A DNA stretch of 64,000 nucleotides, taken from assembly GCA_022425195.1 (NCBI GenBank), contig JAKMFX010000019.1:84676-148675 (forward strand). The letters are read 5' to 3'. Position 1 is the first letter of the stretch; every line of letters starts with the position of its first letter. Below, in pieces: positions 16,867 through 60,891 of the stretch. Position numbers and translations under genes: made by a program. A model generated the notes under the pieces. It had not been told where the DNA came from. It made no database searches and saw nothing but the letters and a program-made list of their open reading frames with translations. Source of the stretch: Flavobacteriales bacterium (GTDB taxonomy: Bacteria; Bacteroidota; Bacteroidia; Flavobacteriales; UBA7430).

Positions 16867-16960
16867 TTTTTCTTTTTTTATTGTGTAGGGTAATAAAGTT
16901 GTTTTTATGTGGTTTTCACCTAAAAAACGGCACAAAGATACGCATTATGCTTGATTTAGC

Positions 16961-17914: not shown

Positions 17915-17923
17915 CTTCCTCTT

Positions 17924-20599: not shown

Positions 20600-21597
20600 A
20601 GTTCCTGAGTTACACTTTTCTTTCTGGGTTGGTACGTCGCTGCCAAATCTGCTATTGCCTTTATATGTTCGGGTGTTGTTCCGCAACAGCCACCTACAAT
20701 ATTTAGTAATCCTTGATCTAAAAACGGTTTTAAATACGCACACATCATCTCAGGGCTTTCATCGTACTCACCAAAAGCATTCGGTAAACCTGCATTCGGA
20801 TACACACTGATAGGAGAATCGCTTATGGCAGAAAGACTTCTAATGTGAGGCAGGAGTTGCTCAGCTCCCAAGGCACAATTCAAGCCAATGCTATAAAAGG
20901 GAAGATGAGAAAGTGATATGTAAAAGGCTTCAACCGTTTGACCCGATAAGGTTCGTCCACTGGCATCGGTAATGGTGCCCGAAATCATAATCGGAAGTGT
21001 TACTTCCAATTCATCAAAAACACGCTGTATCGCAAACAAGGCAGCCTTGGCATTTAAAGTATCAAAGATGGTTTCAACCATAAGAAGGTCAACACCACCA
21101 GCTATTAAGGCACGAGATTGCTCTGAATAGGCTTCTACCAGGTCGTTAAAAGTAATGGCTCGATATCCGGGCCTATTGACGTCAGGAGATAAAGATGCCG
21201 TTCGGTTGGTAGGGCCTATGGCTCCTGCAACAAATCTGGGCTTGTCTGGGTTTGACTGAGTAAAACGAGTTGTGACCTCCTTGGCAATTTTTGCGGAGTG
21301 GTAGTTAATGTCGTAAACTGAGGATTCAAGCGAATAATCGGCTTGCGCAATGCTCGTTCCACTGAAGGTATTTGTTTCAATGATATCAGCTCCTGCTTCC
21401 AAATATTCGGCATGAATTTCTTTGATGATTTCCGGTCGAGTTAAAGACAGTAAATCATTGTTTCCTTTCAGCGGACTCGGGTGTTCATCAAACCATCCGG
21501 CTCTGTAATCCTCTTCTTCAAGTCCGTAGCCTTGAATCATGGTGCCCATACCCCCGTCCAAAACGAGAATGCGTTTATGTATAATTTCTTCTAACAA
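20596..21597 (-). CDS. Homocysteine S-methyltransferase domain protein (stand-alone N-terminal MetH module)
   Basis: LVLDGGMGT start and Zn-ligand Cys motifs GLNCALG and [10 protein letters not shown]. Confidence 0.88.
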
Positions 21598-21617
21598 GGT
21601 CTTGTCATTATTGACGT

Positions 21618-22799
21618 TTATTTTTCTTGTGAATTATTCAAGGCTCCATCAATATCCTTAATGATGTCATCGATATGCTCTAAGCCCACAGAGATTCGGA
21701 TAAGCCCCTGTTTAATTCCAACCTCTAGTCGTTCTTCTTCAGTAAGACGTGCGTGGGTTGTTGATGCTGGGTGGGTAACAATCGTTCTGCTATCCCCCAA
21801 GTTGGCCGTTAGTGAGGCCAACTGTACGGCATTTAGAAACCTTTTCCCGGCTTCTATTCCACCCTTTACGATGAAGCTTAAAATACCGCCACCCTGGCTC
21901 ATTTGTTTTCGCGCAATGTCATATTGCGGATGTGAGGGTAAAAAAGGATACCTCACCGAGTCAACACTTGGATGGGTTTCCAAAAATTGTGACAACTTTA
22001 ACGCATTGTCACTGTGTCGATCCATTCTCAATGCTAGTGTTTCTAGACTCTTGGTAAGCAGCCATGCATTAAAAGGAGATAATGAAGGACCAGAATGTCT
22101 GGCAAAAGCTTTCACTTCTTCAATGATTTCTTTCGAGCCCAAGATGACGCCTCCTAAAACACGGCCTTGACCATCCATGTATTTGGTTGCTGAATGCACC
22201 ACGATGTGCGCTCCGAACTCTATAGGCCTTTGAATGTAAGACGTAGCAAAACAATTGTCCACAACCAATAATACATTATGTTTCTTTGCCAATTTCCCTA
22301 AATGCTCAAGGTCAATAATGTCAATCCCAGGGTTAGAAGGCGTTTCTACGAATAATATTTTTGTATTTTCTTGTATTGCAGACTCCCAGTCCTCTTGTTT
22401 GTTCGCATCTACGTAGGTGTGATTGATGTTCCATTTAGGGAAAACCTTGGTAAATAAAACATGAGAAGACCCAAATATAGAGCGACAAGAAACCACATGG
22501 TCCCCACTTTGAAGTAGACTTGCAAGCGTCGTAAATACAGCAGCCATTCCAGTAGCTGTTGCCCAACCTGCTTCCGCTCCTTCCATCAAAGCTACCTTGT
22601 CTATAAATTCTGTGGTTGTTGGATTTGAAAATCTTGAATAGATATTCCCATCCTCTTCGTCAGAAAACATAGCTCGCATTTGCTCAGCATCATCAAAAAC
22701 AAAACTTGATGTTAGATGAAGAGGTGTTGAGTGCTCATTGAACTGAGAACGCTCTGTTTGGGTTTTTATGGCTAGTGTTTCAAATTTTTGAGTGCTCAT
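21618..22799 (-). CDS. PLP-dependent O-acyl-homoserine sulfhydrylase / Cys-Met metabolism family (MetZ/MetY-like)
   Basis: PLP-lysine motif [11 protein letters not shown]. The start is trimmed to MSTQKFETL, which removes the overlap with osmC. Confidence 0.85.
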
Positions 22800-22803
22800 C
22801 TTC

Positions 22804-23220
22804 TTAGTTGTTTCTAATTTCGAAGCTATACGATATCTCTGCAGTAGGCTGTAAAATCTTTGACACCGAGCAGTATTTGTCAAGAGATAGTTCGATGCTT
22901 TTAATGACTCTTTTTTCTTTTAAATCGCCCCATAAAATGAAGTGAAGATTGATTTTTTTAAACACAGAAGGAACAGCGTCTTCGCGCTCGGCAGTGATTT
23001 GCACCTTAAAGTCGTCCAGTTTTTGTTTCTGTTTTTCTAAAATCAAACCTATGTCAATGCTGCTACAACCCCCTAGGGCCATAAGTAAAAGATCCATCGG
23101 TCGAGTCCCTTTATCATCTCCACCCACTTTTGGGCTGGCATCAATTTGAACTTTATGATGGTAAGCATCTGAGGCTTCAAAATGAAAAGCCTTATTCTTT
23201 CTTACGAGTTCTACATTCAT
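22804..23220 (-). CDS. OsmC/Ohr-family peroxiredoxin-like protein
   Basis: 138 aa with paired Cys motifs (LGGCSSID and DKYCSVSK) typical of OsmC. Confidence 0.75.
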   Translation of the reverse strand: MNVELVRKNKAFHFEASDAYHHKVQIDASPKVGGDDKGTRPMDLLLMALGGCSSIDIGLILEKQKQKLDDFKVQITAEREDAVPSVFKKINLHFILWGDLKEKRVIKSIELSLDKYCSVSKILQPTAEISYSFEIRNN

Positions 23221-23224
23221 AGTT

Positions 23225-24235
23225 TCATTGATTAAAATGCTTACTTATGACTTCAGTTAGGGCGGGTGTTTCAATTAAAAATCCATCGTGCCCGTAAAGT
23301 GAATCTATTTCGACGTAAGTGCCTTCATTTATGTGGCTGGCAACAAACTTTGACTCTTCAACAGGAAACAAAATGTCTGAGCTCAAGCCCACAACTAGAG
23401 CCTTAGCCTTGATGCTTCCTAAAGCATCCTGCAGGCTTTCTCGCCCTTCAGAGACATCATGATTATCCATAGCTACAGAAAGCGTCCAGTAGGAGTAGGC
23501 GTTAAATCGCTTGGCTAACTTTTCTCCTTGATACTGCTGATAAGCTGAAGCTTTCAACGCGCCTGATTCGGACCTTCCTTCTTGTGTGGCTTGATAGGTT
23601 TTGTAGTTTCTATAACTCAAAAGAGCGATCGCTCTCGCTGTTTTCATTCCCTGAATACCTGCTTCAGCATCTTCTTGCCCCCAGGTATGATCAGTGGCAA
23701 TGGCCAAACGCTGGGTCTCATTGAAAGCAATTCCCCAAGGAGAATGCTTTGCATTGGATGCAATGACCACCAAATTCTCAACAATTTCTGGTTCTATGAT
23801 AGACCATTCCAAAGCTTGTTGACCTCCAATAGACCCCCCGATTAGGGTGTTTATTTTCTCGATCCCTAATTCTTTTCTTAACAGGATTAAAGAGCGGGCA
23901 ATGTCTCGTATGGAGGTTTTTGGGAAACTTCCGTAATAAGGTTTTCCCGTCTTAGGATTTACCGATAGAGGCCCGGTAGAGCCATAATGGGAACCTAAGA
24001 CGTTCACTGAGATGATAAAATGTTTTTCCGGATCGTATAGCTTTCCTTTGCCTACAAGCCCACTCCACCAGTCGGAAACATCGGAGTTTGCGGTGAGGGC
24101 ATGGCAGACCCATATCACATTATCGCGATGGGCATTCAACGTTCCCAAAGTCGAATAACTCAATTCCAGTTGAGGTAGTAATCCCCCGAACTGCAATGGG
24201 AATTCTTGTTCGTATGTGAAAGTTTTATGATTCAT
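23225..24235 (-). CDS. metX: Homoserine O-acetyltransferase
   Basis: Alpha/beta hydrolase with nucleophile elbow GGSIGGQQAL and a C-terminal GHDGFL motif. Confidence 0.9.
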   Translation of the reverse strand: MNHKTFTYEQEFPLQFGGLLPQLELSYSTLGTLNAHRDNVIWVCHALTANSDVSDWWSGLVGKGKLYDPEKHFIISVNVLGSHYGSTGPLSVNPKTGKPYYGSFPKTSIRDIARSLILLRKELGIEKINTLIGGSIGGQQALEWSIIEPEIVENLVVIASNAKHSPWGIAFNETQRLAIATDHTWGQEDAEAGIQGMKTARAIALLSYRNYKTYQATQEGRSESGALKASAYQQYQGEKLAKRFNAYSYWTLSVAMDNHDVSEGRESLQDALGSIKAKALVVGLSSDILFPVEESKFVASHINEGTYVEIDSLYGHDGFLIETPALTEVISKHFNQ

Positions 24236-24507: not shown

Positions 24508-24608
24508 GTCCTTATTTTCCCTCTCTCGAGGTAGGATTTAGCACCTTGTCTTTCGACGGGTTGCTAAGGTTTCATTGGGCCTGTCCCTCCACCTTTCTGA
24601 ATAAGTTT
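24508..24608 (-). promoter_or_regulatory. SAM-I (S-box) riboswitch aptamer
   Basis: Minus strand reads CTTATTCAGAAAGGTGGAGGGACAGGCCCAATGAAACCTTAGCAACCC...AAGGTGCTAAATCCTACC...GGGAAAATAAGG. This matches the S-box core (GGUGGAGGGAC.GGCCC.AUGAAACC..GCAACC...GGUGCUAAAUCC) with P1 CUUAUU/AAUAAG. It sits upstream of metX. Confidence 0.9.
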
Positions 24609-24765: not shown

Positions 24766-25809
24766 CTACTTTTCCCAAGTATTTCCACCCGCCAATAATT
24801 TATTGAGGTCTGGTGCTCCTTTCACCTCAATCTCCTGTTGTAATTGTTGACTAAGGCTTTCTTCGTAAGTTCCTCTTTCTTCTTGATAGAAAATACCAAA
24901 AGGGCGAGGGCGTGCATCTGCGTCGGTCGCATTGTCTTCAAAAAACCGGACTAGAATATTGGCTTTGTTACGATCTGTTTCATCATGAATCCACAAATCA
25001 TCCATGCTGACGTTGTCGTCATTAAGCGAGACAATTTTGGCTTGAAAACCATCAAGAACAATCCCCTTATCTAGCTCAGCTCCAAATACAAGTGGTTTTC
25101 CGTGCTCTAGGTAGACACTGTTCTCTTTCTTATTGGTCTTGTCTGTAAATGTGGAAAAGGCACCATCATTAAAGATGTTACAGTTCTGATAAATTTCTAC
25201 CAAAGAAGTTCCCTGATGACGCTCAGCACGAAGCAAAATTTCTTTCAAGTGTTTTGGCTCTCGGTCGATCGATCGGGCAATGAAAGTCGCATCTGCACCC
25301 AAGCTCAAAGCCAAAGGATTAAATGGGTGATCCAAAGATCCCACAGGAGTCGACTTTGTCTTTTTTCCCAATTCAGAAGTTGGTGAGTACTGACCTTTGG
25401 TTAAACCATAAATCTGGTTGTTGAAAAGCAGAATATTCACATTGAAGTTTCTTCTCAAAAGGTGGATAAAGTGATTCCCTCCAATCGCTAGTGAGTCACC
25501 ATCTCCAGTGATAATCCATACGCTTAAGTCAGGGCGAGAAGCCTTTAAACCACTAGCAACAGCTGTAGCCCGACCATGAATGGAATGCATTCCGTAAGTA
25601 TTCATATAGTAAGGAAACCTTGAAGAACACCCGATACCAGATATAAAGACGATGTCTTCCTTAGGAATTCCCAATTCAGGCATCACACTTTGCACCTGTT
25701 TCAGGATGGAATAATCTCCACAACCTGGGCACCATCTAATGTCTTGGTCGCTAGAAAAATCTTTTGCAGTCAATTTTTGTTGATTGCTATCTTTTAAAAC
25801 ATCAAGCAT
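24766..25809 (-). CDS. korB: 2-oxoglutarate/2-oxoacid:ferredoxin oxidoreductase, beta (TPP-binding) subunit
   Basis: [10 protein letters not shown] and TPP motif [15 protein letters not shown]. Confidence 0.88.
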
Positions 25810-25814
25810 GAAAT

Positions 25815-27680
25815 TTACTTTAATTGGTTTAAAACTTCGTTTTTAATCTCTTGAGCATGGAAAGGTTGACCTTTTACTTTGCTTAAACGCTTGGCATCGA
25901 CCAAGTATTTGTCGCGAATCAACTTAACCAATTGTCCATCATTAAGTTCTGGAATGACAATCCGATCAAAATTCGACAGCAGTTCGCCCAAGTTTTCAGG
26001 GAATGGGTGAATGTATCGTATTTGTGCATGAGCAACATCAATTCCTTCATTGCTAAGCTCTTGAGCAGCTGTTTTGATGGCTCCATACGTGGATCCCCAA
26101 CCTAAAATCAATAATTTAGAGCTCATCGATCCACTATCCAGTTCCTGCTGGGGAACATGCTTTGCGATTTGATTTACTTTAGCTGCTCTAAGGTTCACCA
26201 TTTCTTGATGGTTGTCGGGATCATAAGAAACATTTCCTGACTCCTTATCCTTTTCCAAGCCACCCAAGCGGTGTTCTACACCTGGCGTTCCTGGAATGGC
26301 CCATTCTCTGACTAAATCTTCATTACGTTTGTAAGGTAAGTAAGGTTCATCGTCTTCTTTTCTGGCTTCGCGAACTTTAAGAGCAATGGGTTTTAGCTCT
26401 TCAGCCGTGGGGTATTTCCATGGCTCTGCACCATTTGCTATGTATCCATCGGTTAATAAAAATACTGGAGTCATGTGCTCTACGGCAATTCGGCATGCTT
26501 CATAAGCCATCTCAAAGCAATCAGAAGGAGACTGAGCCGCTACAATAGGTAAGGGTGCTTCTCCATTTCTACCGTACATCGCCTGCAATAAATCCGACTG
26601 CTCAGTTTTTGTCGGCAAACCTGTTGATGGTCCACCACGTTGTACATTAATGATGACCAAAGGGAGTTCCATCATAACAGCCAAACCTATAGCTTCGCCC
26701 TTAAGAGCAATCCCAGGGCCCGAAGAAGCTGTAGTGGCTAGATCACCACCAAACGAGGCGCCTATAGCAGAACAAATTCCCGCGATTTCATCTTCTGCTT
26801 GGAAGGTTTTAATGCCAAAGTTTTTGTGTTTTGCTAATTCATGAAGGATGTCTGATGCTGGAGTAATCGGATAACCTCCGTAGAATAAATTCATTCCTGA
26901 GGTATGAGCTGCAGCAATTAGCCCTAAAGATGTTGCCTGATTTCCAATGACGTTTCTGTAAACACCAGGCTCCATTTCTGCCGGTTTGATCTCAAAACGG
27001 TTTGAAAACGTTTCACTGGTTTCCGCATAGTGATAACCAGACTTTAAAACTTTCAAGTTGGCCTCAAGAACTTCTTCCTTAGATTTAAATTTTCTTTGGA
27101 GGAAATCAATGGTTGAATCCAAAGAACGGTTGTAAATCCAATAAATAAAACCGAGAACAAACATGTTTTTACATCGATCTCTTTCTTTAGACCCCAGAGA
27201 GGATTCTTTCAGGTTTTCTCGGGTTAACTTGGTGATATCTATCTGATGAACCTTGTAACCTTCTAAACTGGAGTTGGTCAATGGATTGTCCTCAGGGTCT
27301 ATGCCTGCTAACCTAAAGTTCTTTTTATCAAAGCCTGCCGAGTTGATGATGATGGTTCCTCTTTCCTTAAGTCTGGAAAGATTCTTTTTTAACGATGCTG
27401 CATTCATCGCCACCAATACATCACATAAATCTCCCGGGGTAAAAACAGCTGAGTTACCAAAATTAATTTGAAAACCTGAAACGCCTGCTAAGGTTCCCAA
27501 AGGAGCCCTAATTTCTGCGGGGAAGTCAGGAAAGGTACTCAAATCATTTCCATACAAAGCCGTATTATTGGTGAATTGATTTCCAATAAGTTGTATCCCA
27601 TCACCAGAGTCTCCAGCATAAAGAATGGTTACTTTGTCTAGTACGTTTTTAACTTGTGTGTTTTCTTTTTCCAATGTCAT
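25815..27680 (-). CDS. korA: 2-oxoglutarate/2-oxoacid:ferredoxin oxidoreductase, alpha subunit (fused gamma-alpha type)
   Basis: 621 aa with an N-terminal GDSGDGIQ (gamma-like) region followed by the pyrimidine-binding domain. Lies 5 nt upstream of korB. Confidence 0.88.
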
Positions 27681-27689
27681 TTTATTTGC

Positions 27690-28340
27690 TTAATGCAATC
27701 CACATTCCGTTTTTTGAGCATCTGCCCATCTACCTTCTCTACCTTGACCTTTCTTGGTACAATGAAAACATCCGATAGAATTATAACCACATAATTGAAG
27801 CGGGTGAGCAGGTAAATTATTTTTTACAATAAACTCCTTCTGATCTTCATCACTGGAATCTATCAGAGGGTAAAACTTTATAACGTCGTCTTTGAGTTCA
27901 AAAATTTGTTTCTCAGAACGAGCGCTGTTTTGATGGGCCATCAATCCCGAAACCCAAATTTTGAATCCTGTCTTTAATTTCTGTAAAGGGTTTACCTTGT
28001 TTAGAGAACAGCAAAAGTCGGGATTTTTTGACCAAGTTTCATCTTTCAGAGTGAACTCATTTTCCTGCGGATCTGGTTTTACATCAACCACCTGTAATCC
28101 TAATTTTTTAGCCAGCTTTTTCTTGTAGCTGATGGTTTCAGGAAATGAATACGTTGTATCAATAAAATGAATCTTTTGTTCGGGGTTTACCTTTGCGATT
28201 AGACCCAGTAAATACGCAGAAGAAGCTCCAAATGAAGAAGTTACCAAGACCTCGTCGGTCGAATACTCTTCGTATAAAGCACTCAGCCGTTCCTCGAGGC
28301 TAAGTGAAATATATTTTTTGTTCTTCGCTTCTATCATCAT
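27690..28340 (-). CDS. cysH: Phosphoadenosine-phosphosulfate/adenylylsulfate reductase family protein (CysH-like, Fe-S type cysteines)
   Basis: PP-loop-like SSFGASS and C-terminal ECGLH. The CC...CxxC cysteines (DFCCS, GCFHCT) suggest the [4Fe-4S] APS-reductase type. Confidence 0.8.
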   Translation of the reverse strand: MMIEAKNKKYISLSLEERLSALYEEYSTDEVLVTSSFGASSAYLLGLIAKVNPEQKIHFIDTTYSFPETISYKKKLAKKLGLQVVDVKPDPQENEFTLKDETWSKNPDFCCSLNKVNPLQKLKTGFKIWVSGLMAHQNSARSEKQIFELKDDVIKFYPLIDSSDEDQKEFIVKNNLPAHPLQLCGYNSIGCFHCTKKGQGREGRWADAQKTECGLH

Positions 28341-28344: not shown

Positions 28345-29490
28345 TTAATTCGCGTCTACCTCTTCAAAGTATGCATCTATACCCCCTGAAAGGTTGTATA
28401 AATTTGAAAATCCAAACTCTTTTTCAAGCAGTTGTATGGCTTTTTTACTTCTGGCACCGGCTTTACAGTGTACCACAACTTTTTTGTCCGATACAATTTG
28501 ATCTACCTCTTCCTCTACGTCTGCAAGAGGGATGTGAACGCCATCAAGATTAGAAATCTCATATTCAAAGTCCTCACGCACATCGATCAACTGAAAAGGC
28601 TCATCACTATTTTGCAAATCCAAAAATTCAGCAACAGAAAGGCTCTTCACGTCCTCCTCTTTGTTTGAACTAAAGCCACAAAATTCTTGATAATCTATTA
28701 ATTCTGTAATCGATGGGTTTTTTCCGTTCAACGGATTTTCATCGTCACGGTGCACTTTTACCGTTCTAGTTTCAAAGTTCATGGCATCAAAAAGGAACAG
28801 GCGGCCTACCAAAGGCTCTCCCACTCCCGTAATTACCTTGATTACCTCATTGGCTTGTAGCGAACCTACAATGCCAGGTAGCACACCTAAAACACCACCT
28901 TCAGCACAACTTGGAACCAATCCAGGAGGTGGTGGCGATGGGAATAAGTCTCTGTAGTTTGGTCCTACTACGCCTTCATTATTGATGTAATTGAAAACAG
29001 ATACTTGACCGTCGAATCGATAAATCGATGCATACACATTCGTTTTACCCAATAGGACACATGCATCATTTACTAAGTAACGGGTTGGGAAATTATCTGT
29101 CCCATCAGCTACTAAGTCATAATCCTTAACAATATCTAGAGCATTTTGAGAACTCAATAGGACATTATGAGTGACAATCTTAATGTAAGGGTTTAAACCT
29201 TCCAACCGTTCTTTGGCGGCTAAAACTTTTGGCTTGCCAATGTCATCGGTAGAGAATAGTACTTGACGTTGTAAGTTTGAATCTTCAACCACGTCGAAAT
29301 CAAGTACACCAATCGTACCCACCCCGGCAGCTGCTAGATACTGAAGAAGGGGTGCGCCCAAACCTCCAGTCCCCACGACCAACACTTTGGCTGCTTTTAA
29401 CTTCCGTTGTCCTTCAATATTGAATTCAGGGATAATTAAGTGCCGACTGTATCGGGATAATTCTTCTTTGCTAAATGTTTCTTCTGCCAT
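28345..29490 (-). CDS. MoeB/ThiF-type E1 adenylyltransferase fused to a rhodanese domain (MoeZ-like sulfur-carrier activator)
   Basis: ATP-binding VVGTGGLGAP and a C-terminal rhodanese domain with active-site loop HCKAGARS. Confidence 0.85.
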   Translation of the reverse strand: MAEETFSKEELSRYSRHLIIPEFNIEGQRKLKAAKVLVVGTGGLGAPLLQYLAAAGVGTIGVLDFDVVEDSNLQRQVLFSTDDIGKPKVLAAKERLEGLNPYIKIVTHNVLLSSQNALDIVKDYDLVADGTDNFPTRYLVNDACVLLGKTNVYASIYRFDGQVSVFNYINNEGVVGPNYRDLFPSPPPPGLVPSCAEGGVLGVLPGIVGSLQANEVIKVITGVGEPLVGRLFLFDAMNFETRTVKVHRDDENPLNGKNPSITELIDYQEFCGFSSNKEEDVKSLSVAEFLDLQNSDEPFQLIDVREDFEYEISNLDGVHIPLADVEEEVDQIVSDKKVVVHCKAGARSKKAIQLLEKEFGFSNLYNLSGGIDAYFEEVDAN

Positions 29491-29496
29491 GGTAAA

Positions 29497-29775
29497 TTAG
29501 TTTATTCCTCCTGCAATCGCTGGGATGATGCTAAGTACATCATCAGCTTTAAGGGCTGTTTTTTCTTTGTCTAGGACATTAATATCTTCATCACCTAAGT
29601 AAATTCTTAGAAAGCTTCTAATTTGATTTTTGTCATCAAAAAGGTGCTTATGAACCGTCGGGAATGCACTTGCAAGTGCTTCAATCGCTTCGTATACATT
29701 TGCAGCATCTGCTTCAAAGGCCGCTTGATTGTCTGTAAATTTTCTTAGGGGTGTTGGGATAATTACTTTTGCCAT
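29497..29775 (-). CDS. MoaD/ThiS-family sulfur-carrier protein (CysO-like) with residues after the Gly-Gly
   Basis: 92-aa beta-grasp-sized protein ending ...IIPAIAGG-IN. Flanked by JAMM and E1 genes. Confidence 0.8.
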   Translation of the reverse strand: MAKVIIPTPLRKFTDNQAAFEADAANVYEAIEALASAFPTVHKHLFDDKNQIRSFLRIYLGDEDINVLDKEKTALKADDVLSIIPAIAGGIN

Positions 29776-29796
29776 GATCTTAATTTTAAACGTTTT

Positions 29797-30228
29797 TTAC
29801 TTTTTTTCTTCGTTATCGAAAACGGGTTCTTGAATGAATTTTTGCGCATCGTTAAGCGTCCATGATGAGGTTGCTGCCACTTCACTTTTTACAATAGACA
29901 CAATCACATATGAGAAATTAGGCTGAGCAAATTTCAAATCTGTAGGCGAAGGCACTGCCGGGTGGTCTGGATGAGAGTGATAAACTCCAATTAAATCCAG
30001 ATCATTTTCTATCGCGTAGCGTTCTGCTTTTACATAATCAATAGGAGCAATTTCAAAGATTCGCTCCGGATTGGTTTTGTTTTGATTGACCACATCTCTG
30101 ATCTCAGTAACTTCTTTAATCTCGTTAATCTTTCCGTAAAAGAAGCCACATCCTTCGTGCGGATAGCACGCAACCAAATGCGCATGCATTTCTTTCAGTG
30201 CAGTGTCTGTAAACTTTACTTCTTTCAT
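29797..30228 (-). CDS. JAMM/MPN+ zinc metalloprotease (Mec+-like)
   Basis: Catalytic Glu region HEGCGF and JAMM motif HSHPDHPAVPSPTD. Confidence 0.85.
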   Translation of the reverse strand: MKEVKFTDTALKEMHAHLVACYPHEGCGFFYGKINEIKEVTEIRDVVNQNKTNPERIFEIAPIDYVKAERYAIENDLDLIGVYHSHPDHPAVPSPTDLKFAQPNFSYVIVSIVKSEVAATSSWTLNDAQKFIQEPVFDNEEKK

Positions 30229-30234
30229 CTTCTT

Positions 30235-31185
30235 TTATTTAAAAAGTTGTTCATAAACCTCGCTGTACTTGTCAGCACTATCAGGTATAATGGTTACGAT
30301 AACTCCCTCCTCCAGTTGATTTGCGAGTCGAATCGCTCCAACTAGGTTTGCAGCGCCTGAGGGTCCTATCAATAGGCCTTCTTTTTGTGAAATGTCTTTC
30401 AACAGAGCAAAACTTTCTTCTGTAGAGATTTCTTGATTGTCATCGGCTTGCTCAGCGTTGTATATCTTAGGTACCAAAGCCGTCTCCATATGCTTCCATC
30501 CCTCAATGGCATGCATGGCTGAATCAGGATGAAGGGCAATCACTTGAGTGTTGGGGTCTTGCTCTTTTAGGTACGTTCCCGTACCTCTCATCGTACCGGT
30601 AGTCCCAAGACCCGCCATGAAATGTGTGATCTTTTCATCACCCAGCTGCTCAACAATCTCAGGGCCTGTTGTTTTATAATGTGCTTCCCAGTTGCTATCG
30701 TTACCGTATTGGTCGGCGTAAAAATACTTCTCCGGATGAGCGGCAAACATCTCTTTCGCTTTGTTTTGGGCTCCATCTGTAGATTCATACTGAGATGTCA
30801 ATATCAGTTCAGCACCTAGAGATTTTAAATTTCTAATTCGCTCTATGGATGCATTCGCGGGGATACAAAGTGCTACAGGAATGCCTAAGGCGCCACAAAT
30901 AGAAGCATATGCAATACCCGTATTTCCACTCGAAGCGTCCAACAATGTTTTGTTTCGATCTAATTCGCCTGCAAAAATAGCGTTTTTAACAATTTCAAAG
31001 GCAGGTCGACTCTTCACGCTGGCCCCAAATTGTTGCCATTCTAACTTGGCGTATATTTTCACCCCTTTCTTTTGAAAAAGCCTGTTAAAAGGATACAGCG
31101 GAGTGTTACCTATGAACTTTTCCAATTGCTCTAATCCTTCAATTAAGCTTTTGTCTTCCACTCTATTTTCTTTTATCAGTTCCAT
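30235..31185 (-). CDS. cysM: Cysteine synthase family PLP enzyme (CysM/CysK-like)
   Basis: PLP-lysine region GASVKSRPA and SSGNTGIAYA loop. The start is taken at MELIKEN; the longer ORF start at 31236 would overlap cobA. Confidence 0.82.
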   Translation of the reverse strand: MELIKENRVEDKSLIEGLEQLEKFIGNTPLYPFNRLFQKKGVKIYAKLEWQQFGASVKSRPAFEIVKNAIFAGELDRNKTLLDASSGNTGIAYASICGALGIPVALCIPANASIERIRNLKSLGAELILTSQYESTDGAQNKAKEMFAAHPEKYFYADQYGNDSNWEAHYKTTGPEIVEQLGDEKITHFMAGLGTTGTMRGTGTYLKEQDPNTQVIALHPDSAMHAIEGWKHMETALVPKIYNAEQADDNQEISTEESFALLKDISQKEGLLIGPSGAANLVGAIRLANQLEEGVIVTIIPDSADKYSEVYEQLFK

Positions 31186-31213
31186 ATACTTTTTGTTCTC
31201 ATCTTTTTTAGCC

Positions 31214-31996
31214 TTAATGAGGCACTTGATGCGCAAGATTTTCGTTCACAAAATTATAAACGTATTCGGGATGAAGTTTCACAACTTCCCCAATCACAAT
31301 AACTCCAGGACCTTCTTGAGGTTCTGATTTTAGTTTATCAACGATGTTCGACATCTTCCCTACAAAGATCTTCTCATTGGGTAGGGAGCCGTTGAATATG
31401 ACTGCAATGGGGTAATTAGATCTTCCTTCCTCAGAATATATGGCCGCTATTTCTTCTATTTTTCGCAAGCCCATTAATATGACTACCGTGGCATCAGACT
31501 GAACAGCCAGAGAAACATCTTTCGAAAGCTTCCCATTGCTCTTCGTTCCCGTAATCACCCAGAATCCGTCGTTTATTCCTCTTTTCGTTAAGGGAATGCC
31601 CTGTAAACCTGTTAAAGCAATCGAGCTTGAAATTCCCGGTATATATTCGGTTTCTATGCCGTGAAGTTCTGCGTACTCTTTTTCTTCATACCCTCTTCCA
31701 AAAACATATGGATCTCCACCTTTTAAGCGTATCACGCTTCCCGCTTCTTCAACGTATTTTACAATGAGCTCATTGATTGCATCTTGAGAAAAAGAAGGCT
31801 CGCCAGCTCTTTTTCCGACAGAAATCTTAAGTGCAGCATCATTTGCTGCCTCAAGCAACTCTGGGTTCACCAATGCATCATACAAGATGACTTTGGCATC
31901 TCTAATGGCTCGGAAGCCCTTCCACGTGATCAACTCTGGATCACCTGGTCCTGCTCCAAGAATCATTAACTTACCCTTTGTCGTTTGCTTAATCAT
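31214..31996 (-). CDS. cobA: Uroporphyrinogen-III C-methyltransferase (siroheme branch)
   Basis: LGAGPGDPELIT and RLKGGDPYVFGRG motifs. Confidence 0.88.
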   Translation of the reverse strand: MIKQTTKGKLMILGAGPGDPELITWKGFRAIRDAKVILYDALVNPELLEAANDAALKISVGKRAGEPSFSQDAINELIVKYVEEAGSVIRLKGGDPYVFGRGYEEKEYAELHGIETEYIPGISSSIALTGLQGIPLTKRGINDGFWVITGTKSNGKLSKDVSLAVQSDATVVILMGLRKIEEIAAIYSEEGRSNYPIAVIFNGSLPNEKIFVGKMSNIVDKLKSEPQEGPGVIVIGEVVKLHPEYVYNFVNENLAHQVPH

Positions 31997-32723
31997 TGTT
32001 CTTTTCTCTTAATGCAAAAGCATCTTTCACAAACTTTACAGCAAGTGTTAAGTAACTTTGAGCAAAATCTTTAGTTGGTGCATTTTCATTCATGGCATAA
32101 ACCGTTTCCTGAAAGCTATTTTCTAAATTAAAGTGTGCAGCTTGAGGATACTTCTCATCAAAGTCTTTGATGATTCCTGCCTGAGTGTTGGTTTTCAATC
32201 CTTCAGAAACCAACAATGCTTTTGCTGTATTTACCAATGCTGAATAAGAATGGTAAATCGAATCTGAGTATGCATCTGCTTCGAAAGCTTCCGTTCCAGA
32301 CGCCAAACGCTCTTCCGACTCCAAAAGCAAAGTGGAAACAAGATCAATTGTAACCCCAGCACATTCACCAACTCCAATTTCGGTTTTGAAAGTCTCATCA
32401 TGACCCCAGTCTATGAAATCACTATCCACCAAATTATCTGTAGATGCCAAGCTTTTCAATAACTCATAGAAGTATGGCTTCCCTTGTCTTTGGTAATAAT
32501 CAATATGATACTCCCCTTCATTAGCGTGAGCTTCATAATCATTCAAAATCGTTTTTAAAGCTAATGGTGCTCTCTTGCTTGGGATCTTAACAATCTTATC
32601 CGAAACACGTCCGGCACCATCACCAATAACCCCTCCTCCGAGAAGGATTTGGGTTGCAGGTAATATCCCCTTCTTTACTTTAATTGCAATGGAATCCAAT
32701 GGCAGCCATCGAGTGTTGCCCAC
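31989..32723 (-). CDS. Sulfite reductase hemoprotein, C-terminal fragment: end of the NiR/SiR domain plus a helical C-terminal extension. Read in a different frame from the N-terminal fragment.
   Basis: ...IKVKKGILPATQILLGGGVIGDGAGR continues the SiR fold that breaks off in the upstream ORF. It overlaps that ORF by 44 nt in another frame. Confidence 0.7.
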   Translation of the reverse strand: MGNTRWLPLDSIAIKVKKGILPATQILLGGGVIGDGAGRVSDKIVKIPSKRAPLALKTILNDYEAHANEGEYHIDYYQRQGKPYFYELLKSLASTDNLVDSDFIDWGHDETFKTEIGVGECAGVTIDLVSTLLLESEERLASGTEAFEADAYSDSIYHSYSALVNTAKALLVSEGLKTNTQAGIIKDFDEKYPQAAHFNLENSFQETVYAMNENAPTKDFAQSYLTLAVKFVKDAFALREKNND

Positions 32724-34083
32724 ATGAGTTCATACACCCACTGATTTTAATCTTTAAATTTTTGTTGTAGATGTAGTCTGGATAATCTTGCTTTAAAACA
32801 TCTTCCAAGGCCCCAGCAACTCCTGTACTGTTGGCAATACCCAAGTTACACGTGTCGGTACCCGGACAAGCGGTAACATCATGAGTGCTGTCTGCACCTG
32901 GCACCGCAAAACCTAAACCGTCTAACTCGCTGTAAAGCACTTTTAGATTCGCTTCAGGAACGAACTTAATGACAAAGCCCTGACCGATGGTAAATCGAAT
33001 TTCATCGGAAGCCAATCTCTCAACAATCTTGGCAAGCGCACGTGCTTGAGTCGTTGTGAAGTCCCCTGTCAGAAGTCTTACGTTCACGGCATAGTACCCC
33101 TCTTGCTTTTGAGCGATCACATTACTCTTAAACCATTTGTCATAAGCTTCTGCATCAACATCTACATTAACGGTTTCAGTTAAAGGCTGAGGTCTTTTGC
33201 TTTCTTCGTAGGTGTCTGGATCAATATGAAACGTTTGGTGTTTTAATGCTTTACGCTCTAACTCAACCAATCTTTGAAATTCTTCTACACCAATCTTTTT
33301 CACCAAATACTTTAAACGAGCTTTGTTTCTTCGGGCTCTTTCTCCGTGCTTATCAAATACACGTACCAAGGCTTCGCTGTAAGGAATGATTGCGTCTTCC
33401 GGAAGGAAGTCGTAAACCGACTGCGCCAAGTAAGGCTGGGCACCCAAACCACCTGCGATCACGACTTTAAAACCACGCTGCTCTTCGCCGTTAACAATTC
33501 TTGTTTTTGCGATAAACCCAATATCGTGAATAAACGTATAAGCGCTGTCTTCCTCATCTGAGGAAAAAGCAATTTTCACCTTACGACCCATCTCTTGAGA
33601 AATAGGGTTTCTCAAAAAGAATTCAAACATTGCATGTGCATATGGACTCACATCAAACGGCTCATTTTTGTCAACTCCTGCCAAAGCAGATGCAGTAATG
33701 TTTCTTACCGTATTTCCACAAGCCTCCCTAAGCGTTACATCGTCTTTTTCAAGATCTGCCCATAGTTGAGGCGTTCTATCTAAACTCACATAGTGAATTT
33801 GAATGTCCTGACGTGTGGTAATGTGTAATTTTCCTGTTGAGTATTCATCGGCAACATCGGCAATTCTGAGCAACTGATTCAATTTTGTCTTACCGTATGG
33901 GAGCTTAATACGTATCATTTGCACTCCAGATTGACGCTGTCCATAAACCCCTCTTGCCAAACGAAGACTTCTGAACTTGTCTTCATCTAACTTACCATCT
34001 TTAAAAAGGTGGATCTTTCTTTCCAACTCAATAATATCCTTTTCTACTACAGGATTTTCAATTTCGGTTCTAAAACTTTGCAT
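32680..34083 (-). CDS. Assimilatory sulfite reductase hemoprotein (ferredoxin-type NiR/SiR family), N-terminal fragment ending prematurely
   Basis: Siroheme/4Fe-4S cysteine motifs TACPGTDTCNLG and SGCMNSCGQH. The stop comes directly after AAIGFHCN, inside the conserved domain. Confidence 0.8.
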   Translation of the reverse strand: MQSFRTEIENPVVEKDIIELERKIHLFKDGKLDEDKFRSLRLARGVYGQRQSGVQMIRIKLPYGKTKLNQLLRIADVADEYSTGKLHITTRQDIQIHYVSLDRTPQLWADLEKDDVTLREACGNTVRNITASALAGVDKNEPFDVSPYAHAMFEFFLRNPISQEMGRKVKIAFSSDEEDSAYTFIHDIGFIAKTRIVNGEEQRGFKVVIAGGLGAQPYLAQSVYDFLPEDAIIPYSEALVRVFDKHGERARRNKARLKYLVKKIGVEEFQRLVELERKALKHQTFHIDPDTYEESKRPQPLTETVNVDVDAEAYDKWFKSNVIAQKQEGYYAVNVRLLTGDFTTTQARALAKIVERLASDEIRFTIGQGFVIKFVPEANLKVLYSELDGLGFAVPGADSTHDVTACPGTDTCNLGIANSTGVAGALEDVLKQDYPDYIYNKNLKIKISGCMNSCGQHSMAAIGFHCN

Positions 34084-34111
34084 GCGATTTGGGGTTTAGT
34101 GTTTTGGGTAT

Positions 34112-34141
34112 AAAAAAAACCTTTCTAGGAGGAAAGGCTTT
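34112..34141 (-). terminator. Intrinsic terminator inside the 5' leader of the cysteine operon (attenuator terminator)
   Basis: Minus strand AAAGCCTTTCctcctaGAAAGGTTTTTTTT. It lies 28 nt upstream of the sir ATG and about 30 nt downstream of the Cys-rich leader ORF stop. No upstream same-strand gene needs terminating. Confidence 0.65.
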
Positions 34142-34167
34142 GTATATCTATGATTTCTTGTTTGTCA

Positions 34168-34275
34168 TTAGCATATATCTAACCTTTCGTTTTGTGTACA
34201 ACAACACATTACATAACAGGCACAACAATTCATCATTGCGTTGTCTAGGTTAGTGTATGTATTTGAATTTTTCAT
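34168..34275 (-). CDS. Cysteine-rich leader peptide ORF (35 codons, 7 Cys): MKNSNTYTNLDNAMMNCCACYVMCCCTQNERLDIC
   Basis: I translated this by hand from the minus strand; it is absent from the ORF track because it is too short. There is an in-frame TAA 11 codons upstream of the ATG. Codons 17, 18, 20, 24, 25 and 26 are UGU, and codon 35 is UGC. Followed by the terminator above. Confidence 0.6.
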   Translation of the reverse strand: MKNSNTYTNLDNAMMNCCACYVMCCCTQNERLDIC

Positions 34276-34648
34276 GCTGTTGTTTATATAGGGTAATTGT
34301 GAGTGTGCTTAAATGATGGTTCATCTTAGCAACAACAGCAAGTTGCCTGTGTGGATACACGAGCAGATCTAGTAAGATCGTTGGATAGGGCTAAAAAAGT
34401 AATTTTCTTCATCACTTTTAGGGTCTGTAAAGTATTGTTAAAAACTTTTTGTAAATATACGACCATAATCAATTACAAAACAAGCAATCTTTTATTTATT
34501 TTAAAACTAATTGCGTTCGCAACTCCTCCAATACAACAAATGTTTCCCTCAAATTCACCGCTATAACCTACGTCATCATAGAGAGTTAAATAAATCAAAT
34601 CATGTAGATAGCTCTATATTATTTTTTATATTTAGACCATGATATAAT

Positions 34649-37192: not shown

Positions 37193-37220
37193 CAAAAGCA
37201 AAATATAGAAAACAAAAAAA

Positions 37221-37317
37221 GGGCAAGCTACTTAAATCACAGTGCTCAACCCTCTACCCTTGCTGCGTTCCCGCCCTGGGGGAATTTGAGGGGAGCGACT
37301 TGTCTAAGACTTGCCCC
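37221..37317 (-). ncRNA. ffs: Small bacterial SRP RNA (4.5S-type)
   Basis: Minus strand GGGGCAAGTCTTAGA...CCCCAGGGCGGGAACGCAGCAAGGGTAGAGGG...TTTAAGTAGCTTGCCC. The termini pair (GGGCAAG/CTTGCCC). Apical GCG-GGAA-CGC tetraloop with flanking AGCA/CAGG motifs as in domain IV. Followed by a T7 run and preceded by a TAnnTTTG box. Confidence 0.72.
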
Positions 37318-37320
37318 GCG

Positions 37321-37328
37321 CAAAGATA
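37321..37328 (-). promoter_or_regulatory. Candidate -7 promoter box for the SRP RNA
   Basis: Minus strand TATCTTTG fits TAnnTTTG and ends a few nt before the predicted 5' G-run of the SRP RNA. Confidence 0.5.
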
Positions 37329-60890: not shown

Positions 60891-60891
60891 A

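What the first reader, a model, noticed from the sequence alone, without database searches (positions are those of the whole stretch)
28345..31236. Protein-thiocarboxylate cysteine synthesis module (CysM-like, JAMM, CysO-like, MoeZ-like) with a C-terminally extended carrier
Four tightly spaced consecutive genes encode a CysK/CysM-family PLP enzyme, a JAMM/MPN+ protease (HSHPDHPAVPSPTD), a 92-aa MoaD/ThiS-fold carrier, and a MoeB/ThiF E1 fused to rhodanese (HCKAGARS). This is the gene set of the Mycobacterium tuberculosis CysO/CysM/Mec+/MoeZ cysteine route. It is also analogous to the Wolinella succinogenes HcyS/HcyD/HcyF/MetY route.

Here the module is embedded directly in a sulfite reductase / cobA / cysH-like operon of a Bacteroidota-type genome. 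The carrier ends AGG-IN rather than GG, so the Gly-Gly needed for adenylation and thiocarboxylation is masked by two residues. That implies an obligatory maturation cleavage, most simply by the adjacent JAMM protease, as described for HcyS-Ala/HcyD and QbsE/QbsD. The pathway assignment is inferred from domain content and synteny only.
Basis: partly seen in the sequence, partly recalled or inferred. Interest (0 to 1): 0.6.

Follow-up and report, generated by a model that had tools for sequence, protein, structure and literature searches.

The report
Carrier-protein cysteine synthesis gene cassette
Four adjacent genes in a marine Flavobacteriales genome encode a known kind of cysteine pathway in which sulfur is delivered on the end of a small ubiquitin-like protein. 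The two extra residues on that protein's end are the rule in this gene family, not an oddity.

Summary
On the minus strand lie a CysK/CysM-family PLP enzyme (30235-31185), a JAMM protease with an intact motif (29797-30228), a 92-aa ThiS/MoaD-fold carrier ending AGG-IN (29497-29775), and a MoeZR-type E1 fused to rhodanese (28345-29490). They sit inside sir-cobA-[module]-cysH-korAB.

The carrier's best solved relatives are CysO proteins, not MoaD or ThiS. The PLP enzyme belongs to the CysM branch but forms its own clade, about 33% identical to M. tuberculosis CysM.

Relatives of the PLP enzyme were fetched from 80 genomes of several phyla. In 65 of the 67 loci with enough flanking sequence, the JAMM gene lies next to it. 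Of 67 carriers found, 62 have residues after the Gly-Gly, and in 22 of these the carrier is fused in frame to the E1. The masked Gly-Gly is therefore a family trait, and proteolytic maturation is very likely obligatory.

This operon type was catalogued in 2006 (Iyer et al., row 4c). The chemistry is established for the M. tuberculosis (CysO) and Wolinella (HcyS-Ala/HcyD) systems. Verdict: a sound annotation and a new member of a known kind, of moderate to low interest. The acceptor substrate, the sulfur loading step and the cleavage itself remain untested.

The parts
30235..31185 (-). CysM-branch PLP beta-replacement enzyme (316 aa from the ATG; an alternative TTG start at 31236 overlaps cobA). 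It has the Schiff-base Lys58 (SVKSR), the Asn loop S86-G-N-T-G90, the phosphate loop G194-T-T-G-T198, and the clade motif H225..E228-G-W-K231-H232.
   Evidence: Pfam PALP and NCBIfam cysKM/cysM matches, the latter below their equivalog cut-offs. PDB matches. Invariant columns. Tree and bootstrap. K231 aligns with M. tuberculosis CysM R220.
29797..30228 (-). JAMM/MPN+ zinc metalloprotease (143 aa) with E25, H84-S-H86, S94 and D97. It is the proposed tail-removing and cysteine-releasing hydrolase.
   Evidence: Pfam Prok-JAB, E 7.4e-23. Best solved relative is 2kcq (Mov34/MPN/PAD-1 family), E 4.8e-24. Adjacent to the PLP gene in 65 of 67 loci.
29497..29775 (-). CysO-like beta-grasp sulfur carrier made as a precursor (92 aa), ending PAIAGG-IN.
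   Evidence: Pfam ThiS. Best PDB matches are CysO proteins. Alignment with M. tuberculosis CysO shows 31% identity and shared IPT.LR and PA(I/V)AGG motifs.
29500..29505 (-). Codons for the Ile91-Asn92 tail that masks Gly90. The stop codon is at 29497-29499.
   Evidence: DNA read directly. Tail statistics in relatives.
28345..29490 (-). MoeZR-type E1 adenylyltransferase/sulfurtransferase (381 aa). It has the GTGGLG nucleotide loop and the SCAEGG cysteine, and lacks both CxxC zinc motifs.
   Evidence: Pfam ThiF plus Rhodanese. NCBIfam MoeB/MoeZ models at 460-469 bits, below cut-off. Sequence. MoeZ versus MoeB criterion from PMC3227635.
28366..28635 (-). Rhodanese domain of the E1, with the active-site loop C-K-A-G-A-R.
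   Evidence: Pfam Rhodanese on residues 286-375. Sequence.
31989..34083 (-). Context: NirA-type (ferredoxin-type) sulfite reductase. It is split here by a 5-nt deletion near 32689; close relatives have a single 699-aa ORF.
   Evidence: Pfam NIR_SIR and NIR_SIR_ferr. Gene calls in relatives. DNA alignment.
31214..31996 (-). Context: uroporphyrinogen-III C-methyltransferase (cobA/cysG C-terminal type), for siroheme supply.
   Evidence: NCBIfam TIGR01469, 253.6 bits against a cut-off of 185.
27690..28340 (-). Context: CysH-type APS/PAPS reductase with the CC...CxxC and ECGLH motifs.
   Evidence: NCBIfam NF002537, 185.8 bits against a cut-off of 154. Sequence.
24766..27680 (-). Context: the two subunits of a 2-oxoacid:ferredoxin oxidoreductase (korA 25815-27680, korB 24766-25809). 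They are the last genes of the transcription unit and a likely source of reduced ferredoxin.
   Evidence: NCBIfam TIGR03710 at 672.7 bits and TIGR02177 at 267.2 bits, both above cut-off. Same gene order in L002-L006.

Best explanation
The four genes form a self-contained cassette that makes cysteine from protein-bound sulfur. In this genome the cassette is wired into the sulfate-reduction operon. The proposed cycle has five steps.

1. The carrier is translated as an inactive precursor (…AGG-Ile-Asn). The JAMM protease cuts after Gly90 and exposes the Gly-Gly carboxylate.
2. The ThiF domain of the E1 adenylates Gly90.
3. Sulfide from the co-transcribed sulfite reductase converts the acyl-adenylate to a thiocarboxylate. 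This happens either directly or through a persulfide on the fused rhodanese domain.
4. The CysM-like PLP enzyme forms an aminoacrylate from an activated serine (O-acetyl- or O-phosphoserine, not determined). The carrier thiocarboxylate attacks this intermediate. An S-to-N acyl shift then gives carrier-Gly-Gly-Cys.
5. The same JAMM protease hydrolyses that amide, releasing cysteine and regenerating the carrier.

Shown here: the genes, their domains and motifs, the CysO affinity of the carrier, the conserved synteny, and the near-universal masking of the Gly-Gly. Inferred by analogy with M. tuberculosis CysO/CysM/Mec+/MoeZ and Wolinella HcyS-Ala/HcyD: every chemical step.
For: - Domains and motifs are complete.
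- The carrier is closest to CysO structures: E 1.6e-9 and 2.5e-7, and 31% identity with shared N- and C-terminal motifs.
- The PLP enzyme groups with E. coli CysM and M. tuberculosis CysM against the CysK group in 100 of 100 bootstraps. With its 80 relatives it forms one clade in 100 of 100 bootstraps.
- In 65 of 67 loci with at least 3 kb downstream, JAMM follows the PLP gene. In 62 of these an E1 follows too, with a free or fused carrier.
- Only these genes are conserved around the PLP gene.
- 62 of 67 carriers have residues after the GG, and 22 are fused in frame to the E1.
- 116 of the 120 closest homologues have a tail, usually of 2 residues and of variable sequence.
- Only 7 of 139 family representatives with the motif end at the GG.
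- The E1 lacks the CxxC motifs, which makes it MoeZR-type.
- The cassette is co-oriented and tightly packed with sir, cobA and cysH.
- Precedents for JAMM removal of residues after the GG are described in PMC5925218. The M. tuberculosis pathway is summarised in PMC3227635.
Against: - No biochemical or genetic data exist for this clade.
- The PLP enzyme is only 32-35% identical to any characterised CysM or CysK. By score it is nearer E. coli CysM (179 bits), which uses free sulfide or thiosulfate, than M. tuberculosis CysM (140 bits).
- Its position relative to the two is unresolved: 61 versus 31 of 100 bootstraps.
- NCBIfam equivalog cut-offs are not reached for the carrier, JAMM, E1 or PLP enzyme.
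- Two loci have the PLP gene with no neighbouring module genes, and three have JAMM but no E1 or carrier nearby.
- The sulfite reductase gene in this window carries a frameshift.
- Whether the genome also has cysK/cysE, or uses this E1 and carrier for molybdenum cofactor or tRNA thiolation, could not be checked.
Confidence: 0.75

Rival explanations
1. The carrier thiocarboxylate feeds homocysteine and methionine synthesis, as in Wolinella HcyS/HcyD/HcyF/MetY. The consumer would be the O-acylhomoserine sulfhydrylase encoded 6 kb downstream. This could happen instead of, or in addition to, cysteine synthesis.
For: - A metX-osmC-sulfhydrylase-metH-metF operon lies directly downstream.
- The carrier has a masked Gly-Gly, like HcyS-Ala.
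- The module sits among sulfate-reduction genes, like Iyer type 4e.
- In one locus (L067, Kryptoniota) the module is directly followed by genes matching the window's sulfhydrylase and metX.
Against: - The methionine genes form a separate unit behind their own SAM riboswitch at 24509-24607.
- The sulfhydrylase scores best as MetZ (O-succinylhomoserine sulfhydrylase, 539.7 bits against a cut-off of 522), not as the MetY type.
- Linkage of the methionine genes to the module is seen in only 1 of 80 loci, whereas the CysM-like gene is always present.
- Type 4e E1 proteins lack rhodanese and come with SirA. Here the reverse holds.
Confidence: 0.12
2. The PLP enzyme is an ordinary CysM that uses free sulfide or thiosulfate. 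The carrier, E1 and JAMM serve another sulfur-transfer task (molybdenum cofactor, thiamin or tRNA thiolation) and are merely co-located.
For: - The PLP enzyme's highest-scoring characterised relative is E. coli/Salmonella CysM.
- Some sources annotate relatives as 'cysteine synthase B' or 'S-sulfo-L-cysteine synthase'.
- M. tuberculosis MoeZR also serves molybdenum cofactor synthesis.
Against: - The order PLP-JAMM-carrier-E1 is kept across Bacteroidota, Acidobacteriota, Armatimonadota, Rhodothermota and others, with no other conserved neighbour.
- No MoaE, ThiG or TtuA-like gene occurs in the window.
- Thiamin and molybdenum cofactor operons never contain JAB genes.
- The carrier is nearest to CysO, not MoaD or ThiS.
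Confidence: 0.08
3. The module is a ubiquitin-like protein-conjugation system (SAMP/Urm1/TtuB-like, or an anti-phage Ubl system). JAMM would be the deconjugase and the tail a ubiquitin-style propeptide.
For: - The best NCBIfam matches, all below cut-off, are SAMP1, desampylase and the SAMP-activating E1.
- PADLOC JAB and E1-E2 models match weakly.
- Making the carrier as a precursor resembles ubiquitin.
Against: - There is no E2 domain. The PADLOC matches cover only the E1 core, and neither the PLP enzyme nor the carrier matches any defence model.
- The module is embedded in an amino-acid biosynthesis operon.
- A PLP enzyme is an invariable partner.
Confidence: 0.05

Closest known systems
M. 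tuberculosis CysO / CysM / Mec+ / MoeZR cysteine pathway (Burns et al. 2005; O'Leary et al. 2008; summarised in PMC3227635)
   Same: It has the same four protein types: a CysO-family beta-grasp carrier, a CysM-branch PLP enzyme, a JAMM protease, and an E1 with a C-terminal rhodanese that lacks the CxxC motifs. The carrier is homologous to CysO (E 2.5e-7, 31% identity).
   Different: M. tuberculosis CysO ends exactly in Gly-Gly; here the Gly-Gly is followed by Ile-Asn. The PLP enzyme is only about 33% identical and lies in a separate clade, with Lys231 where M. tuberculosis CysM has Arg220, the residue tied to O-phosphoserine use (from my own knowledge). In M. tuberculosis moeZ is unlinked and the operon carries ClpS (Iyer type 4d). 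Here all four genes are adjacent and sit inside sir-cobA…cysH-korAB.
Iyer, Burroughs & Aravind 2006 gene-neighbourhood type 4c (ThiS/MoaD + E1-rhodanese + JAB + cysteine synthase; includes Salinibacter ruber)
   Same: The gene content and domain architecture are exactly the same. The JAMM protein's best solved relative is 2kcq (Mov34/MPN/PAD-1 family), which from my own knowledge is the Salinibacter ruber protein.
   Different: That paper lists the type as uncharacterised and standalone. Here it is inserted into a sulfate-reduction operon, which is a type 4e-like context.
Wolinella succinogenes HcyS-Ala / HcyD / HcyF / MetY (Krishnamoorthy & Begley 2011; from my own knowledge, paper not held)
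   Same: The carrier is made with extra residue(s) after the Gly-Gly that a JAMM protease removes. The cluster is linked to sulfate reduction, and the same protease also releases the amino-acid product.
   Different: The consumer there is an O-acetylhomoserine sulfhydrylase that makes homocysteine. The E1 there lacks rhodanese and comes with a SirA-like protein. Here the consumer is a CysM-like enzyme and the E1 carries rhodanese.
QbsE-CF / QbsD (thioquinolobactin) and CxnE-decapeptide / CxnF (chuangxinmycin) (PMC5925218)
   Same: The sulfur carrier has residues after the Gly-Gly, and a cluster-encoded JAMM protease is held to expose the Gly-Gly.
   Different: Those are secondary-metabolite pathways with different sulfur acceptors, not a CysM-like enzyme.
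E. coli / Salmonella CysM (O-acetylserine sulfhydrylase B)
   Same: It lies on the same branch of the PLP family, separated from the CysK group in 100 of 100 bootstraps. It is the highest-scoring characterised relative (179 bits) and has a basic residue (R210) at the position of K231.
   Different: Identity is 35%. It uses free sulfide or thiosulfate and has no carrier, JAMM or E1 neighbours (L087).

Membership tests
CysO-type protein-thiocarboxylate cysteine pathway (M. tuberculosis) | Beta-grasp ThiS/MoaD-family carrier homologous to CysO, with a C-terminal Gly-Gly | tested here: met
   Pfam ThiS, E 3.2e-9. CysO structures are the best PDB matches. The alignment shares the IPT.LR and PA(I/V)AGG motifs. 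The Gly-Gly is present but followed by 2 residues.
CysO-type protein-thiocarboxylate cysteine pathway (M. tuberculosis) | CysM-type PLP enzyme with intact catalytic residues | tested here: met
   PALP, E 1.6e-65. K58, the S86-G90 loop and the G194-T198 loop are invariant. It joins the CysM branch in 100 of 100 bootstraps, but as a separate clade 32-33% identical to M. tuberculosis CysM.
CysO-type protein-thiocarboxylate cysteine pathway (M. tuberculosis) | JAMM/MPN+ protease with the E…HxH…S..D motif (the Mec+ role) | tested here: met
   Prok-JAB, E 7.4e-23. E25, H84, H86, S94 and D97 are present.
CysO-type protein-thiocarboxylate cysteine pathway (M. tuberculosis) | MoeZR-type E1: ThiF domain without the two CxxC motifs, plus a C-terminal rhodanese with an active-site Cys | tested here: met
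   ThiF plus Rhodanese. GPNYRDLF and RDDENPLNG replace the CxxC sites, and the CKAGAR loop is present. Criterion from PMC3227635.
CysO-type protein-thiocarboxylate cysteine pathway (M. tuberculosis) | O-phosphoserine as acceptor substrate (Arg220 of M. tuberculosis CysM) | tested here: inconclusive
   Lys231, invariant in the clade, aligns with R220. E. coli CysM, which uses O-acetylserine, also has Arg there. No cysE or serC/serB gene in the window settles the question.
CysO-type protein-thiocarboxylate cysteine pathway (M. tuberculosis) | Carrier thiocarboxylate is the sulfur donor and the carrier-Cys adduct is hydrolysed by the JAMM protease | not testable with these tools
   This needs enzyme assays and mass spectrometry. 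Only conserved synteny supports it.
Iyer et al. 2006 neighbourhood type 4c | Adjacent genes for ThiS/MoaD, E1 fused to rhodanese, JAB and cysteine synthase | tested here: met
   All four genes are adjacent and co-oriented. Definition from Table 1, row 4c.
Wolinella HcyS/HcyD/HcyF/MetY homocysteine route (Iyer type 4e) | Carrier with residue(s) after the Gly-Gly, plus a JAMM protease in the cluster | tested here: met
   GG-IN tail. JAMM is adjacent. Cleavage itself was not tested.
Wolinella HcyS/HcyD/HcyF/MetY homocysteine route (Iyer type 4e) | E1 without a rhodanese domain, accompanied by a SirA-like protein | tested here: not met
   The E1 has a rhodanese domain. No SirA/TusA-like ORF was found among the operon genes. 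Criterion.
Wolinella HcyS/HcyD/HcyF/MetY homocysteine route (Iyer type 4e) | O-acetylhomoserine sulfhydrylase is the consumer within the cluster | tested here: inconclusive
   A MetZ-type sulfhydrylase lies 6 kb downstream, in a separate unit headed by a SAM riboswitch. The module's own PLP enzyme is CysM-like.
MoaD/MoeB (molybdenum cofactor) or ThiS/ThiF (thiamin) sulfur transfer | Carrier nearest to MoaD or ThiS; MoaE or ThiG/ThiH neighbours; no JAB gene | tested here: not met
   E. coli MoaD and ThiS structures are not matched at E <= 1, while CysO proteins are. No MoaE or ThiG occurs in the window. A JAB gene is present, and such operons never contain one.
Ubl conjugation or anti-phage E1-E2-JAB systems | E2 domain (often fused to the E1) and no metabolic partner | tested here: not met
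   PADLOC E1-E2 models match only the E1 core. There are no matches for the carrier or the PLP enzyme.

The most novel reading that the evidence does not exclude
The clade spans Bacteroidota, Acidobacteriota, Armatimonadota, Rhodothermota and other phyla, and none of its members has been characterised. Across it the sulfur carrier may always be made as an inactive precursor, ranging from a 2-residue tail to full fusion with its own E1. JAMM cleavage would then be an obligatory, and possibly regulated, on-switch for sulfur assimilation. In addition, the same thiocarboxylate might feed both the CysM-like enzyme and the neighbouring MetZ-like sulfhydrylase. In that case, reduced sulfur would pass from sulfite reductase to cysteine and homocysteine without ever being free sulfide in these aerobes.
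Probability: 0.15. Interest if true: 0.55.

Novelty: new member of a known kind. Interest (0 to 1): 0.3.

Why it matters
The finding supports a sound functional annotation for genes that databases currently label only 'MoaD/ThiS family protein', 'cysteine synthase family protein' or 'molybdopterin converting factor'. It suggests that many marine Flavobacteriales and other Bacteroidota, as well as Acidobacteriota and Armatimonadota, may make cysteine through a protein thiocarboxylate rather than free sulfide. This bears on metabolic models of sulfur assimilation in aerobic environmental bacteria.

The comparison gives a clear, testable generalisation. In this clade the carrier is almost always made with a masked Gly-Gly, so the JAMM protease should act twice in the cycle: once to mature the carrier and once to release the product. 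The chemistry and the operon type are already known, so nothing here overturns current understanding.

Tried and rejected
1. Stop-codon readthrough or a recent fission. In the window the carrier stop and the E1 start are in frame (TAA TTT ACC ATG). Across other loci, however, carrier and E1 share a frame in only 13 of 42 cases, which is chance level. Rejected as a signal.
2. A natural variant lacking JAMM. L001 seemed to lack the gene, but the gap is a run of 100 N in a scaffold. Rejected.
3. An anti-phage Ubl system. PADLOC gives only domain-level JAB and E1 matches, with no E2. Rejected.
4. A riboswitch or leader upstream of sir (34084-34648). No Rfam match better than E 0.14, all far below gathering scores. 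The sigma-70 promoter scan was no better than shuffles and does not suit Bacteroidota anyway.
5. Extra conserved partners, such as cysE, serC or a cysteine desulfurase. Clustering the flanking ORFs of the 80 loci found only PLP, JAMM and carrier/E1, plus antisense shadow ORFs.
6. cysDN, cysE and cysK in the window. None found.
7. Reading the primary Begley papers (PMC3089676, PMC2647513). They are not held. What I say about them rests on my own knowledge and on secondary accounts.
8. Deciding whether the PLP clade is sister to M. tuberculosis CysM or to E. coli CysM. Neighbour-joining bootstraps do not decide it, at 31 versus 61 of 100.

Full report
**The observation**

Four co-oriented ORFs lie on the minus strand, separated by 6, 21 and 6 nt.
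- The first is a PLP enzyme at 30235-31236. The TTG start overlaps cobA; the ATG at 31185 gives 316 aa, the length called in close relatives.
- The second is a 143-aa protein at 29797-30228.
- The third is a 92-aa protein at 29497-29775.
- The fourth is a 381-aa protein at 28345-29490.

Pfam assigns PALP (E 1.6e-65), Prok-JAB (7.4e-23), ThiS (3.2e-9), and ThiF (7.1e-78) plus Rhodanese (8.6e-13). The quoted motifs are present. The JAMM signature is complete (E25, H84-S-H86, S94, D97), and the rhodanese loop reads CKAGAR. The carrier's last codons read gca gga gga ata aac taa, that is AGG-IN-stop.

**Genomic setting**

The transcription unit is sir, cobA, PLP, JAMM, carrier, E1, cysH, korA, korB.
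- The sir gene encodes a NirA-type sulfite reductase.
- The cysH product carries the CC…CxxC and ECGLH motifs.
- The korA and korB genes encode a 2-oxoacid:ferredoxin oxidoreductase, a plausible source of reduced ferredoxin.
- A SAM riboswitch at 24509-24607 (81.3 bits against a gathering score of 44.4) then heads a separate methionine unit: metX, osmC, a MetZ-type sulfhydrylase, a split metH, metF and asd.
- Proteins identical to the carrier and the PLP enzyme come from marine metagenomes and are labelled Flavobacteriales bacterium.
- No cysDN, cysE or cysK is present in the 64 kb window.

**The carrier**

Against all solved structures, the best matches are two CysO proteins. One is 4n6e_B (E 1.6e-9), which I recall as the Amycolatopsis CysO in complex with BexX. 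The other is M. tuberculosis CysO, 3dwg_C (E 2.5e-7). MoaD-related proteins appear only at E 1e-3 or worse, and E. coli MoaD and ThiS are not matched at all. An alignment with M. tuberculosis CysO shows 31% identity, with shared IPT.LR, DED(I/V) and PA(I/V)AGG motifs. The refutation condition 'the carrier groups with MoaD or ThiS' is therefore not met.

**The PLP enzyme**

The enzyme keeps the Schiff-base lysine (K58), the Asn loop (S86-G90) and the phosphate loop (G194-T198), all invariant among relatives. It scores 179 bits against E. coli CysM and 140 bits against M. tuberculosis CysM. Identities are 35% and 32-33% respectively.

A neighbour-joining tree included the window enzyme, 80 relatives, E. 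coli CysK and CysM (taken from L087), M. tuberculosis CysM (sequence verified as identical to 3dwg_A) and a CysK structure.
- The window enzyme and its relatives form one clade in 100 of 100 bootstraps.
- That clade joins the two CysM proteins against the CysK group in 100 of 100.
- The order among the three is unresolved: 61 of 100 with E. coli CysM and 31 of 100 with M. tuberculosis CysM.

'CysM-like' is therefore right, but orthology to M. tuberculosis CysM is not shown. The clade's hallmark motif, H225..E228-G-W-K231-H232, places an invariant Lys where M. tuberculosis CysM has Arg220. From my own knowledge, Arg220 is the residue tied to O-phosphoserine use. E. coli CysM has Arg210 at the same position. 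The acceptor substrate therefore cannot be read from the sequence.

**The E1**

Both CxxC zinc motifs of MoeB are absent: GPNYRDLF and RDDENPLNG stand in their places. By the criterion given in PMC3227635, this makes the E1 a MoeZR-type enzyme.

**Synteny**

A scan of one genome per GTDB species with a PLP alignment returned 80 loci at 47-63% identity. They come from Bacteroidota, Rhodothermota (Salinibacter, Balneolales, Fodinibius), Acidobacteriota, Armatimonadota, Rubrobacter, Cyanobacteriota, Phycisphaerales and Kryptoniota.
- Of the 67 loci with at least 3 kb downstream of the PLP gene, 65 have a JAMM gene next to it.
- Of these 65, 42 have a free carrier plus E1, and 20 have an E1 that itself contains the carrier.
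- Three loci have JAMM only, and two have neither JAMM nor the other genes.
- Clustering all flanking ORFs found no other conserved gene. The cassette is self-contained.
- Linkage to sir, cobA or cysH is confined to Flavobacteriales-type loci (L027, L034, L041, L086).

**The tail**

This point decides how special the finding is.
- Among the 120 closest carrier homologues (57-100% identity), 3 end at the GG, 81 have a 2-residue tail and 16 a 3-residue tail.
- In these homologues the first tail residue varies (I 49, S 16, V 13, K 13) and the second is often N or A. The nearest relatives switch between IN, VN and KN.
- Among the 80 genome loci, 45 carriers are free-standing and only 5 of these end at the GG. 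The others have tails of 1 to about 30 residues.
- A further 22 carriers are fused in frame, through a short variable linker, to the N-terminus of the E1. An example is …AIAGG-TEDAVQ-FSKEEL… in L086.
- Among 150 representatives of the family at 50% identity, 7 of the 139 with the motif end at the GG. Many long 'tails' are E1 sequence. Some of these are metagenomic gene calls that may be incomplete.
- Some tails start with Cys or are poly-Cys: GG-C, GG-CCCC, GG-CCCCCCL. These mimic the carrier-Gly-Gly-Cys product that a Mec+-type protease hydrolyses.

A Gly whose carboxylate is in a peptide bond cannot be adenylated. Cleavage after the GG is therefore chemically required. The masking is a trait of the family, not a peculiarity of this locus. 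The only protease conserved with the carrier is the JAMM protein.

**Comparison with what is known**

Iyer, Burroughs and Aravind (2006) already listed this gene set. Table 1, row 4c reads ThiS/MoaD, E1 fused to rhodanese, JAB and cysteine synthase, and includes Salinibacter ruber. They also proposed that JAB proteins free the carrier's C-terminus where the carrier is fused to another protein. The JAMM protein's best solved relative is 2kcq (Mov34/MPN/PAD-1 family), which I recall as the Salinibacter ruber protein.

The M. tuberculosis chemistry is summarised in PMC3227635:
- MoeZR loads CysO with sulfur.
- CysM adds O-phosphoserine to the CysO thiocarboxylate.
- Mec+ releases cysteine.

Removal of residues after the GG by a JAMM protease is described for QbsE-CF/QbsD and proposed for CxnE/CxnF (PMC5925218). 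From my own knowledge it was also shown for HcyS-Ala/HcyD in Wolinella; that paper is not held.

The window's module combines three things: the type 4c gene set, a pro-carrier as in HcyS and QbsE, and a type 4e-like sulfate-reduction context. It differs from type 4e in having a rhodanese on the E1 and no SirA-like gene.

**Mechanism and confidence**

The best explanation (about 0.75) is the cycle set out in the Best explanation section:
- JAMM matures the carrier.
- The E1 adenylates it.
- Sulfide from Sir forms the thiocarboxylate, either directly or through the rhodanese persulfide.
- The CysM-like enzyme couples the thiocarboxylate to an activated serine.
- JAMM releases cysteine.

The rivals are as follows.
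- A Wolinella-like supply of the nearby MetZ-type sulfhydrylase, about 0.12, more likely as an added role than as the main one.
- Unrelated co-location of an ordinary CysM, about 0.08.
- A Ubl-conjugation or defence role, about 0.05. The module has no E2 domain, and PADLOC matches are at domain level only.

**Caveats**
- In this window sir carries a 5-nt deletion (GGATC, near 32689) relative to relatives that are 96-98% identical. The deletion splits the 699-aa ORF. It may be an assembly error or a real lesion.
- NCBIfam equivalog cut-offs are not reached for any of the four module proteins. This is consistent with an uncharacterised clade.
- The rest of the genome could not be examined.

**Verdict**

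The feature is a new member of a known kind of system. Its most useful new content is the comparative finding that masked or fused carriers are the rule in this large clade.

Noticed in passing
window 32680-32700 (sir, minus strand): There is a 5-nt deletion (GGATC) relative to relatives that are 96-98% identical (L002, L003). It frameshifts the sulfite reductase into 467-aa and 244-aa ORFs; relatives have one 699-aa ORF. This is either an assembly error or a real inactivating lesion in the gene that should supply the sulfide.
   Followed up: partly
L012, L015, L018, L019, L026, L028, L031, L033, L035, L048, L051, L054, L055, L059, L060, L061, L063, L066, L067, L071, L082, L086: In 22 of the 80 related loci the carrier is fused in frame to the N-terminus of the E1-rhodanese protein (464-598 aa) through a short variable linker placed right after the AGG. 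The Gly-Gly is therefore internal and must be released by cleavage.
   Followed up: yes
L077 9403-9690; L022; L043; proteins P0253, P0265, P0303: Some carriers, mostly from Acidobacteriota, have tails that begin with Cys or are poly-Cys (GG-C, GG-CCCC, GG-CCCCCCL). These resemble the carrier-Gly-Gly-Cys product that a Mec+-type protease hydrolyses.
   Followed up: no
window 24766-27680 (-): The korA and korB genes (2-oxoacid:ferredoxin oxidoreductase) are the last two genes of the sir…cysH operon, and this is conserved in close relatives. They are a plausible dedicated source of reduced ferredoxin for the NirA-type sulfite reductase in an aerobe.
   Followed up: partly
window 24509-24607 (-), with genes 15877-24235 (-): A SAM-I riboswitch (81.3 bits) heads a unit of metX, an OsmC-family protein, a MetZ-type sulfhydrylase, metH, metF and asd. 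The metH gene is split into a 333-aa S-methyltransferase ORF and an ORF of about 890 aa for the B12-binding part; the same split is seen in relatives.
   Followed up: partly
window 31989-32723 (-): The C-terminal part of the sulfite reductase gives a weak Pfam HEPN match (E 4.1e-5, residues 131-189 of that ORF). This is an unusual appendage for a NirA-type enzyme.
   Followed up: no
window 60000-62511: A large serine recombinase gene (60871-62478, +) overlaps a tRNA gene (62430-62511, -). It lies in a stretch with GC of 0.33, against about 0.42 elsewhere. This is probably the edge of an integrated element.
   Followed up: no
L076 9467-10513: In a Phycisphaerales genome the PLP-JAMM pair is followed by a second, CysK-like PLP gene (60% identical to E. 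coli CysK) instead of a carrier and E1.
   Followed up: no
window 37217-37323 (-): A Bacteroidales-type small SRP RNA (83.5 bits) is present, consistent with a Bacteroidota origin.
   Followed up: no
window 29490-29499: The carrier stop codon and the E1 start codon are in the same reading frame (TAA TTT ACC ATG), one stop codon away from the fused architecture. The frame is shared in only 13 of 42 other loci, so this is probably chance.
   Followed up: yes
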